A stretch of 64,000 nucleotides of DNA from the NCBI GenBank assembly GCA_048938855.1, contig JBHLLT010000003.1, positions 96,001-160,000 of the forward strand. Reading direction: 5' to 3'. Below, piece by piece: positions 17,445 through 22,215 of this stretch (positions within the stretch are counted from its first letter, which is position 1; each line of letters opens with the position of its first letter). A program made the translations under genes and the position numbers. Below the pieces are notes generated by a model. It saw only the letters and a program-made list of their open reading frames with translations, did not search any database and was not told where the DNA came from. Origin of the DNA: Promethearchaeota archaeon. Lineage in GTDB: Archaea; Asgardarchaeota; Lokiarchaeia; Sigyniarchaeales; SOKP01.

Positions 17445-17975
17445 TCATTTCGAATCAACGTTTTTGATCATTATTTCCACTAGGTTTAGGAAGGCTTCTT
17501 CCACTTTTTCCCCGGTTTTTGCAGAAGTTTCAATATAAAAAGTATCTTCTTTTTTGGCAAACACTTCCGCGTTTTCTCGTTCATAGAGTTCATCTCTTTT
17601 GTCGATCAAATCCACTTTATTACCAATAACCGCAAAAGGTATACTATCACCTGCATAATCCCGTAAATCGGATAGCCATTCTTCAAGTTCTTCAAATGTA
17701 TGCCATCTAGAAAGATCAAAAACAATTAGGGCTCCATTAGCTCCATCAAAAAAACTAGATCTTAAAAATTTATATCTATCTTGACCACCGATATCCCAAA
17801 TCTGTATTTTTATAGTATCACCATTATTGTGAATTGTCTTTGAAAGGAAATCTGCTCCTATAGTCAATTTATATCTGAAAGAGAACTTATCTTCAACAAA
17901 TCTATGTAATAACGATGTTTTACCTACAGCACCAGGTCCTATAATTATCATTTTAAAGACATAAAGGTGTGAAAT
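17445..17975 (-). CDS. Rab-like small GTPase (copy 1)
   Basis: GPGAVGKT, TIGADF, KIQIWDIGGQ, NKVD, ETSAK. The ORF track starts at ATG 17951; homology to the paralogs and a GGTGA site favour ATT 17975. Confidence 0.92.
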   Translation of the reverse strand: MSHLYVFKMIIIGPGAVGKTSLLHRFVEDKFSFRYKLTIGADFLSKTIHNNGDTIKIQIWDIGGQDRYKFLRSSFFDGANGALIVFDLSRWHTFEELEEWLSDLRDYAGDSIPFAVIGNKVDLIDKRDELYERENAEVFAKKEDTFYIETSAKTGEKVEEAFLNLVEIMIKNVDSK

Positions 17976-18118
17976 ATATTCTCACCATATTGAATGTTCA
18001 TATCTAATTTGCAATTCTAATAAATAATCTAAATTCAATATTTAAACCTTTTCCAAAACATTGAGTTTAAATAGAAATTCTTGTTAAGCTTGACAAAATT
18101 CGAAATTAGAGAATGTAA

Positions 18119-18649
18119 TCATTCCCCAAAGGTATTTTTTACAATTAGTCGTGTTAGTTGAGTAAATGCTTCTTGAATGTTTTCACCAGTTTTCGCTGAA
18201 CTTTCAAGATAGGAATAATCTAATTTCTCAACAAAATGATTAATCTCATTTTGGTCGAAAGATTCACCAATTTTGGGTACCAAATCCGATTTATTCCCCA
18301 GAATCACGATTGGAACTTTTTCTTCAATTATCACGTTTAAATCAGAGATCCATTCTTTCATTTTTGAAAATGTCTGTGGTCTTGAAAGATCAAATACCAC
18401 TAATGCCCCATAAGTACCCTCATAAAAATTTCTACGTAATATTTTAAAACGTTTTTGTCCTCCAATATCCCATATTGTGAGCAGAGCAAACGAGTCTTTC
18501 TCAAACTCTACTAATTTAGAATTGATTTCCACCCCAATTGTGAACATATAATCGAAGGAAAACTCATTTTTAACAAATCTACGAATGATTGAGGACTTTC
18601 CAACTCCTCCAGGTCCAATTACTATAATTTTTAGTACATATTCATACAT
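18119..18649 (-). CDS. Rab-like small GTPase (copy 2)
   Basis: GPGGVGKS, TIGVEI, WDIGGQ, NKSD, ESSAK. Confidence 0.93.
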   Translation of the reverse strand: MYEYVLKIIVIGPGGVGKSSIIRRFVKNEFSFDYMFTIGVEINSKLVEFEKDSFALLTIWDIGGQKRFKILRRNFYEGTYGALVVFDLSRPQTFSKMKEWISDLNVIIEEKVPIVILGNKSDLVPKIGESFDQNEINHFVEKLDYSYLESSAKTGENIQEAFTQLTRLIVKNTFGE

Positions 18650-18801
18650 ATATGGTATTCAAGCTTACATTATTTGTTCTTATAGTAATATTTAGAGATA
18701 TTATGCTAAATTTGTGGGATAGTTCCTAATTAAATTGCAGTTAATAAAAACATTTATAAATATATTAAATTCTGATACAAGAGAACAAATTATGAATATA
18801 T

Positions 18802-19332
18802 TTACTCCTTAAATGAATTTTCAACTATCATTTTAGTAAGTTCAACAAAAGCACTTTGAACATTATCACCCGATTTTGCAGATGTTTCAATATAAATACT
18901 TCCAATCTTATCAGCATAATCTTTAGGTTCGTTTCTATCAATTACTTCACCAATTTCAGAAATCAGATCTAGCTTATTTCCAAGAATTACAAGAGGAACT
19001 TTTTCTTCTATCAACTCATTCATGTCAGAGACCCATTCTTTCATTTTTGAATAAGTCTGGACTCTTGTAAGATCAAACACCACTACTGCTCCATGAGTTC
19101 CTATATAAAAATTTCGACGTAGATTTTTAAACCGATCTTGACCGCCTATATCCCAAATGGTTAATCTTGCTTTCTTGTCTGAATCATATTCTATAATCTT
19201 AGTTGAGAAATCTACACCAATTGTGAACTGATAATGTAAGGTAAATTTATCCTCACTAAATCTACGGATGAGACTGGACTTTCCTACGGCTGCTGGGCCA
19301 ATAACAATGATTTTAAATGAAAGCTCTACCAT
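18802..19332 (-). CDS. Rab-like small GTPase (copy 3)
   Basis: GPAAVGKS, TIGVDF, WDIGGQ, NKLD, ETSAK. Confidence 0.93.
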   Translation of the reverse strand: MVELSFKIIVIGPAAVGKSSLIRRFSEDKFTLHYQFTIGVDFSTKIIEYDSDKKARLTIWDIGGQDRFKNLRRNFYIGTHGAVVVFDLTRVQTYSKMKEWVSDMNELIEEKVPLVILGNKLDLISEIGEVIDRNEPKDYADKIGSIYIETSAKSGDNVQSAFVELTKMIVENSFKE

Positions 19333-22019: not shown

Positions 22020-22126
22020 AATTTACTACTCCTTTAAAAGTCCTTTATTTAAAACTTCAAATTTTGGATATTAATTTCTTAATTATTATGAAAGTTTTAT
22101 CTGTATTCAAAATTATTATATTAATT

Positions 22127-22215
22127 AGATGTTCGAAAATGATGATTAATGTGGTTTGAGTAATAATACCCCTTTTTACAATGATAATGGAGCAGAGATC
22201 TGATTTCGAGCATCT
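22127..22215 (+). ncRNA. Box C/D guide sRNA (snoRNA-like)
   Basis: Box C ATGATGA 22139-22145 and box D CTGA 22200-22203, directly closed by a 12-bp stem (AGATGTTCGAAA 22127-22138 / TTTCGAGCATCT 22204-22215, one G-U pair). Internal D' TTGA 22156-22159 and C' ATGATAA 22181-22187. Lies in an ORF-free 253-bp gap. Confidence 0.8.

What the first reader, a model, noticed from the sequence alone, without database searches (positions are those of the whole stretch)
22127..22215. Unannotated box C/D guide RNA with eukaryote-like architecture
Seen: a perfect box C (ATGATGA) and box D (CTGA) closed immediately by a 12-bp stem; degenerate D' (TTGA) and C' (ATGATAA) separated by 21 nt; guides TTAATGTGGT (22146-22155) and TGGAGCAGAGAT (22188-22199); a possible BRE-TATA (GAAAGTTTTAT, about 22090-22100) upstream. 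Known: archaeal C/D sRNAs are usually about 50-60 nt with well conserved C'/D' and short spacers, while long terminal stems and degenerate C'/D' are typical of eukaryotic snoRNAs. Inference: an independently transcribed Asgard guide of about 89 nt with intermediate character. I could not recognise an rRNA or tRNA target, so it may be an orphan guide.
Basis: partly seen in the sequence, partly recalled or inferred. Interest (0 to 1): 0.7.

Follow-up and report, generated by a model that had tools for sequence, protein, structure and literature searches.

The report
Loki archaeal 16S helix-28 guide RNA
This is a real, conserved small guide RNA of a Lokiarchaeia (Asgard) archaeon that most likely directs sugar methylation of one cytidine in the 'neck' helix of the small ribosomal RNA; it is not an orphan and is built like an archaeal guide, so it is a new example of a known kind.

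Summary
The boxes and 12-bp stem are as described. The element is the best box C/D-plus-stem candidate in the genome and has 21 copies (15 genomes of one genus, including this one, plus 6 metagenome contigs) with covarying stems. It is not an orphan: the D guide makes 10 Watson-Crick pairs with this genome's own 16S rRNA, helix 28, predicting Cm1383 (E. coli numbering; 0 of 600 shuffled rRNAs match as well). The match includes a base specific to this order. The D' guide core is conserved but its target is unsettled: the opposite strand of helix 28 (C936, only 6 bp; the layout of Nanoarchaeum equitans sR17) or a 23S expansion segment; chance is about 0.015 for each. 'Eukaryote-like' is mostly not supported: guide spacers are 10 and 12 nt (archaeal type), C'/D' keeps a K-turn helix, and Methanococcus guides have longer linkers. 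Only the 11-14-bp stem is unusual. The RNA has been lost repeatedly within the genus, so it is dispensable. Expression and methylation are untested. The scan noted other Asgard guides on other DNA, not this one.

The parts
22090..22100 (+). putative BRE/TATA promoter element (TTTAT at 22096-22100)
   Evidence: TTTA(T/A) at -29 to -31 from the stem start in 18 of 21 copies in several gene contexts; the genome's tRNA genes gave no sharp motif position to compare with; function inferred
22127..22138 (+). 5' arm of the terminal stem
   Evidence: 12 pairs, 96.7% of cells paired, 4 pairs with changes on both sides in 15 sequences; 11-14 bp in 20 of 21 copies
22139..22145 (+). box C
   Evidence: invariant in alignment A1
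22146..22155 (+). D' guide (10 nt); D'+5 is G22151; core UGUG invariant; target unsettled (16S C936 or 23S expansion segment C761, G069 numbering)
22156..22159 (+). box D' (UUGA; CUGA, AUGA, UUAA, CUAA in relatives)
22160..22180 (+). D'-C' linker (15-25 nt in the family); 22160-22163 pairs with 22176-22179 as the helix of the internal K-turn
   Evidence: first pair formed in 21 of 21 copies (17 G-C, 4 A-U), second 17 of 21 (U-A, C-G, G-U)
22181..22187 (+). box C' (AUGAUAA; degenerate at its 3' end)
   Evidence: its sixth base pairs with the first base of D' in 14 of 21 copies (U-A, C-G, U-G)
22188..22199 (+). D guide (12 nt); 22189-22198 pair with 16S rRNA 1389-1380; D+5 is G22195, facing C1383 (E. 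coli numbering)
   Evidence: identical in 19 of 21 copies
22200..22203 (+). box D
   Evidence: invariant in alignment A1
22204..22215 (+). 3' arm of the terminal stem

Best explanation
A stand-alone archaeal box C/D sRNA. It is transcribed from its own TATA-like promoter (inferred), folds into two K-turns (C/D closed by the long stem, C'/D' closed by the linker hairpin; pairing shown by covariation), binds L7Ae, Nop5 and fibrillarin (genes shown present, binding inferred), and pairs its D guide with the 3' strand of 16S helix 28 (complementarity shown). By the D+5 rule fibrillarin then 2'-O-methylates C1383 (inferred). The D guide copies the sequence of the helix's own 5' strand, so it can only bind while helix 28 is open, during small-subunit assembly (inferred from energies). 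The D' arm is a weaker second arm, most simply a 6-bp grip on the displaced 5' strand of the same helix, probably too short to methylate C936 well. The RNA is accessory: many close relatives have lost it.
For: Target: 10 Watson-Crick pairs plus a terminal G-U with the 16S on contig C40, which is 98.4% identical to 16S genes of the genus and sits in an AT-rich contig with a tRNA gene. Duplex -20.3 kcal/mol against -14.0 for the next best site; 0 of 600 shuffled rRNA sets and 0.7% of shuffled guides do as well. The guide's A at D+4 fits U1382, found in every 16S of this order read except contig C18, whereas the genomes outside the order have C there. 9-10 bp is the efficient duplex length for archaeal C/D complexes (PMC7229835). 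Conservation. Covariation. Fibrillarin and Nop5 genes adjacent on C81, an L7Ae-family gene on C34. Guide duplex -20.6 against -14.4 for the two helix-28 strands folded together. The only CCACA in the 16S lies in the 5' strand of helix 28; 0.017 such sites expected in a 25-nt window. Precedent: N. equitans sR17 pairs D with the 3' and D' with the 5' strand of helix 28 (PMC4644070).
Against: No expression or methylation data. No case of guide and target changing together: two copies carry a D-guide change (G003, G072) but their 16S 3' ends were not found, and genomes with a variant target (G042, G050, G052, G054) yielded no guide. The host's own 16S 5' strand and 23S are not assembled, so those come from congeners. 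The D' pairing with helix 28 is 6 bp, under the 9-bp criterion of PMC4644070; the invariant A at D'+8 and two A variants at D'+2 do not fit it. Found in only 15 of 53 genomes of the genus.
Confidence: 0.8

Rival explanations
1. Same RNA and same 16S C1383 target, but the D' arm works on 23S rRNA: it methylates C761 (G069 numbering) in a lineage-specific expansion segment of domain II, and the D guide has a second target 108 nt away at C869 (about E. coli C660). The RNA would then act on both subunits.
For: This genome's D' allele pairs over 10 nt (8 Watson-Crick + 2 G-U, -8.5 kcal/mol, its best rRNA site) and the D guide over 9 nt (-14.0). Both within 120 nt happens in 1.3% of shuffles. The site explains the invariant A at D'+8 and the G/A variation at D'+2. 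Guides with one arm serving two targets are described (PMC4644070 Table 3).
Against: G025 carries guide and 23S, and its U at D'+7 breaks this site while improving the helix-28 match to 7 bp. The C869 site varies among congeners, and the C761 site is just as conserved in genomes without the guide (G069, G075), so its conservation is not owed to the guide. G is kept at D'+2 in 19 of 21 copies despite a 30% GC genome, which fits a C in the target better than a U. Mean energy over alleles is weaker than for helix 28 (-6.3 against -7.4). The host 23S is not assembled.
Confidence: 0.3
2. Single-guide RNA: only the D arm works, and the D' spacer is kept for structural reasons or for a target not tested here (5S, SRP or RNase P RNA, tRNA introns, mRNA).
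For: No D' site stands out by energy; several score alike, and a 6-bp match somewhere in the rRNA is expected 96% of the time. D' is damaged in two copies (UUAA, CUAA) and C' in one.
Against: The UGUG core at D'+3 to +6 is invariant in 21 copies, whereas the D' spacer of the second guide family of this lineage drifts to about 11% GC. The internal K-turn helix covaries.
Confidence: 0.25
3. A eukaryote-like intermediate snoRNA: a guide whose internal motif has decayed and whose architecture foreshadows eukaryotic snoRNAs.
For: C' departs from consensus in all 21 copies and D' in most; the terminal stem is 11-14 bp. The second guide family also has degenerate C'/D' and a drifting D' arm.
Against: Guide spacers 10 and 12 nt, invariant (PMC7229835). 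C'/D' keeps K-turn geometry with compensated pairs. Longer linkers occur in M. maripaludis. One Nop-domain gene only, no Nop56/Nop58 pair. No mapped plant site lies between 18S Am1579 and Cm1645. The family was found in one genus only.
Confidence: 0.1
4. A MITE-like mobile element or a chance motif that mimics a C/D RNA, like the inverted-repeat-flanked elements of Pyrobaculum calidifontis.
For: Flanked by 12-bp inverted repeats, degenerate C'/D', different neighbours in different genomes and a patchy distribution; such elements are described (PMC6009581).
Against: One copy per genome. Guides are more conserved than the linker and flanks, and one matches rRNA perfectly. Relatives show loss or truncation at the shared locus, not fresh insertions.
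Confidence: 0.03

Closest known systems
Nanoarchaeum equitans C/D box sRNA sR17 (Dennis et al. 2015, PMC4644070)
   Same: D guide aimed at the 3' strand of 16S helix 28 and shares the core GGAGCAG; its D' guide is aimed at the 5' strand, as the D' core here may be; proposed assembly chaperone.
   Different: sR17 targets the positions equal to E. coli 1384 and 933; this RNA predicts 1383 and 936. sR17 is 60 nt with a 4-nt linker, consensus C'/D' and a long D' duplex; this one is 89 nt with a 21-nt linker, a 12-bp stem and only 6 bp on the D' side. No similar guide was recognised among the listed matches in 400 genomes of the phylum (a noisy search, 97 matches not shown), so convergence is as likely as common descent.
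Sulfolobus acidocaldarius sR118 and Ignicoccus hospitalis sR56 (PMC4644070)
   Same: Their D' guides pair with the same 3' strand of helix 28.
   Different: They target alignment position U1367 (E. coli 1380), three bases away, with the other arm. The nucleotides predicted here (alignment C1370, C919) are not listed for any of the 489 sRNAs.
Methanococcus maripaludis C/D box sRNAs sR102, sR103, sR107 (PMC4644070, Additional file 1)
   Same: Mesophilic archaeal guides with long D'-C' linkers (about 19-34 nt), terminal stems and lengths up to about 90 nt.
   Different: Their C'/D' boxes are near consensus and their terminal stems look shorter (about 5-6 bp by eye); different targets.
Arabidopsis snoR70 and 18S Cm1626
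   Same: A listed 2'-O-methyl cytidine in helix 28 (PMC8351944).
   Different: In that table's numbering it maps to about E. coli 1387, not 1383; numbering schemes differ by 4, and the site is absent from the mapped plant sites in PMC11542601. No equivalence can be claimed.

Membership tests
Archaeal box C/D sRNA | Terminal box C and box D brought together by a stem (K-turn) | tested here: met
Archaeal box C/D sRNA | Internal C'/D' motif able to form a K-turn or K-loop | tested here: met
   UGA of C' and GA of D' kept in 18 of 21 copies; closing helix covaries
Archaeal box C/D sRNA | Guide spacers of about 10-12 nt | tested here: met
   10 and 12 nt in all 21 copies; criterion from PMC7229835 and PMC7994747
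Archaeal box C/D sRNA | At least one guide with 9 or more Watson-Crick pairs to rRNA or tRNA, including a Watson-Crick pair at D+5 | tested here: met
   10 pairs to host 16S, G-C at D+5
Archaeal box C/D sRNA | Host encodes L7Ae, Nop5 and fibrillarin | tested here: met
Archaeal box C/D sRNA | Expressed, bound by the complex, and target methylated | not testable with these tools
   needs RNA data or reconstitution
Long-range double guide of the N. equitans sR17 type | D guide pairs with one strand of a long-range helix | tested here: met
   3' strand of helix 28
Long-range double guide of the N. equitans sR17 type | D' guide pairs with the opposite strand over 9 or more nt | tested here: not met
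   only 5-7 bp in the family, 6 here; it may work like sR17 but is not filed as a member
Long-range double guide of the N. equitans sR17 type | Common descent with sR17 | tested here: inconclusive
   similar guide cores follow from the shared target; no intermediates recognised
Eukaryote-type box C/D snoRNA | Long, variable guide spacers | tested here: not met
Eukaryote-type box C/D snoRNA | Degenerate C'/D' | tested here: inconclusive
   degenerate in sequence, conserved in structure
Eukaryote-type box C/D snoRNA | Host has separate Nop56 and Nop58 | tested here: not met
   one Nop-domain match in the genome
MITE-like sRNA mimic (P. calidifontis) | Many copies per genome with poorly conserved guides | tested here: not met
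Any Rfam 15 family | Score at or above the gathering threshold | tested here: not met

The most novel reading that the evidence does not exclude
The RNA is a two-armed clamp that holds both strands of 16S helix 28 apart and then lets the neck of the small subunit close, the sR17 arrangement turning up again in an Asgard lineage with very few guides, here with one methylating arm and one short, non-methylating anchor arm; in the strongest version the same two arms also serve a pair of sites in 23S domain II, so one guide acts on both subunits.
Probability: 0.3. Interest if true: 0.55.

Novelty: new member of a known kind. Interest (0 to 1): 0.36.

Why it matters
I found no paper describing Asgard C/D guides in the library searched, and this family is in neither Rfam nor the 489-guide archaeal set, so it adds a predicted modification (16S Cm1383) in the neck of the small subunit. 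It bears on the untested proposal that double guides chaperone long-range rRNA helices, known mainly from N. equitans. Close relatives with and without the guide give a natural comparison. It does not support a stepping stone towards eukaryotic snoRNAs, and its repeated loss limits its importance.

Tried and rejected
Rfam: no family. tRNA targets: none of the genome's predicted tRNAs beats -9.4 kcal/mol with the D guide; intron-containing tRNAs were tested only as unspliced ARAGORN models. mRNA matches: an exact 12-nt complement at C43:101702 was not followed up. Contig C18 rRNA has a mismatch at D+4 but is 79-83% (16S) and 63-64% (23S) identical to the genus and is taken as contamination. Expression: no RNA holder listed, so no reads were laid. 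Covariance model search of 151 genomes of the order: strong matches only in this genus. Guide-target covariation could not be tested, because rRNA genes are missing from most guide-bearing genomes. Equivalence with Arabidopsis Cm1626: not established. The bacterial promoter and terminator scan was uninformative; tRNA upstream regions gave no clean TATA profile. My first genome scan for other guides missed the C70 guide; the relaxed scan found it, so the guide inventory is a lower bound. 5S, SRP and RNase P RNAs were not tested as targets.

Full report
Observation. The element sits in a 253-nt gap between a divergent CMD-family gene and a GNAT gene and is not covered by an ORF. Among 389 box C...box D pairs in the 3.95-Mb genome it has the best terminal stem, and four shuffled genomes produced nothing close. 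Rfam has no matching family. The host is a Lokiarchaeia archaeon (a 90% cluster mate of its fibrillarin is so named).

Conservation. BLAST, pattern and covariance-model searches found the RNA in 15 genomes of the genus, this one included, and in 6 metagenome contigs (three further pattern hits were chance). Boxes C and D are invariant, the D guide is identical in 19 of 21 copies, and the core UGUG of the D' guide is invariant, while the linker and flanks vary. The terminal stem is paired in 96.7% of cells, with four pairs changed on both sides, and falls to 22-52% when slid; these sequences are related, so the shuffle figure is not a probability. The linker forms a second helix in K-turn geometry: its first pair is G-C in 17 and A-U in 4 copies, and other registers fit worse. 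A TTTA(T/A) motif lies 29-31 nt before the stem in 18 of 21 copies, although the neighbouring genes differ between groups. With the upstream gene pointing away, this argues for an own promoter (inference).

Target of the D guide. The genome holds two 16S fragments. Contig C40 is AT-rich, carries a tRNA gene and is 98.4% identical to 16S genes of the genus; contig C18 is about 80% identical and is taken as contamination. The D guide makes 10 consecutive Watson-Crick pairs with the C40 16S, at E. coli positions 1380-1389, plus a possible G-U at 1379 (numbering counted on the E. coli line from known landmarks). The D+5 rule gives C1383. This is the 3' strand of helix 28. The site reads U at 1382 in all other 16S genes of this order that were read and C outside the order, and the guide has the matching A. 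The duplex is -20.3 kcal/mol against -14.0 for the runner-up; none of 600 shuffled rRNA sets gave such a site. Ten pairs is the length archaeal complexes use best (PMC7229835). Fibrillarin, Nop5 and an L7Ae-family gene are present. So the RNA is not an orphan.

Target of the D' guide. Two readings are about equally supported. First, the only CCACA in the 16S lies in the 5' strand of helix 28; the D' guide pairs 6 bp there, with D'+5 on C936; 0.017 such sites are expected in that window. This is the layout of N. equitans sR17, whose D and D' guides are aimed at the positions equal to 1384 and 933 and which was proposed to chaperone the helix (PMC4644070). But 6 bp is under the usual 9-bp criterion. 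Second, this genome's allele pairs over 10 nt (two G-U) with a 23S expansion segment at C761 (G069 numbering), 108 nt from a 9-nt secondary match of the D guide at C869; such a pair turns up in 1.3% of shuffles. This fits the invariant A at D'+8, but it is broken in G025, the site is equally conserved in genomes without the guide, and both sites come from congeners because the host 23S is not assembled. That the D' core is under selection is suggested by a second guide family of the same lineage, whose D' spacer drifts to 11% GC.

Mechanism. Shown: boxes, two covarying helices, spacer lengths, complementarity to host 16S, the protein genes. Inferred: transcription, protein binding, methylation of C1383, timing. 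The D guide copies the 5' strand of helix 28 and binds the 3' strand more strongly than that strand does (-20.6 against -14.4 kcal/mol), so it has to act before the helix closes or displace it. The simplest role for the D' arm is a weak grip on the displaced strand.

Eukaryote-like? Mostly no. The feature that separates archaeal from eukaryotic guides is the length of the guide spacers, and these are 10 and 12 nt. The 21-nt stretch is the D'-C' linker; M. maripaludis guides have linkers of about 19, 28 and 34 nt and reach about 90 nt (counted by eye). C' and D' depart from consensus but keep the bases and helix of a K-turn in most copies. There is one Nop-domain gene. The 11-14-bp stem is unusual and unexplained, but it is a family trait: the second family has mostly 2-6 bp. 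No eukaryotic equivalent of the site could be established.

Distribution. On a Nop5 tree of 55 rows the guide needs 5-6 gains or losses (one gene; G005, G016, G036 and three outgroup genomes left out). At the shared locus G075 keeps only the 3' half, and G012 and G063 have nothing; genomes rated 99-100% complete lack the guide word with box D. The likeliest history is presence early in the genus and repeated loss, so the RNA is dispensable. It was not found in the other genera searched.

Verdict. A real, previously undescribed archaeal box C/D guide with a well-supported 16S target: a new member of a known kind. Interest 0.36. The helix-clamp reading (probability 0.3) would merit 0.55.

Noticed in passing
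L360:814-870 (G000:C70:182313-182369, +), outside the window: A second box C/D sRNA. Its D guide pairs 9 Watson-Crick + 1 G-U with 23S and predicts Cm2498 (E. coli numbering), the site that the protein RlmM methylates in E. coli (PMC3488215); the table in PMC11542601 lists no counterpart in Haloarcula or eukaryotes. Found in 27 of 154 genomes, 5 genera, control 0. Short stem, drifting D' arm. Possibly more interesting than the finding itself.
   Followed up: partly
L352:1479-1550 (G075): A 3'-half relic of the guide: C', D guide, box D and 3' arm kept; box C, D' guide and D' lost.
   Followed up: partly
L083 about 1595-1625; also L350, L352, L353: A conserved inverted repeat (core CGTGAAAG...CTTT(T/C)ACG) downstream of the guide locus that persists where the guide is lost; three diverged copies in G000. 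Perhaps a regulator site or a terminator.
   Followed up: partly
L003 (G000:C18) and contigs C11, C19, C29, C30, C37: Contamination in the assembly: C18 is a linked 16S-23S stretch of another archaeon with an insertion of about 145 nt in the 16S; the other contigs are 65-67% GC.
   Followed up: partly
L100 (G069 23S, about positions 745-830): An insertion of about 45 nt in 23S domain II relative to the C18 23S, present in four congeners, with a conserved short loop.
   Followed up: no
window 17445-19332 (-): Three tandem Ras-family small GTPase genes (one confirmed by Pfam), a common Asgard trait.
   Followed up: no
window 22132-22137 and the same place in relatives: The stem arms carry a self-complementary TTCGAA core, a 12-nt palindrome in some relatives; the stem sequence is more conserved than pairing alone requires. 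Unexplained.
   Followed up: no
whole genome G000: Only two convincing rRNA guides were found; no guide for the 23S P-loop guanosine turned up, although earlier notes report one in other Loki genomes. The scans are lower bounds.
   Followed up: partly
G000:C49:41348-41440: A selenocysteine tRNA gene.
   Followed up: no
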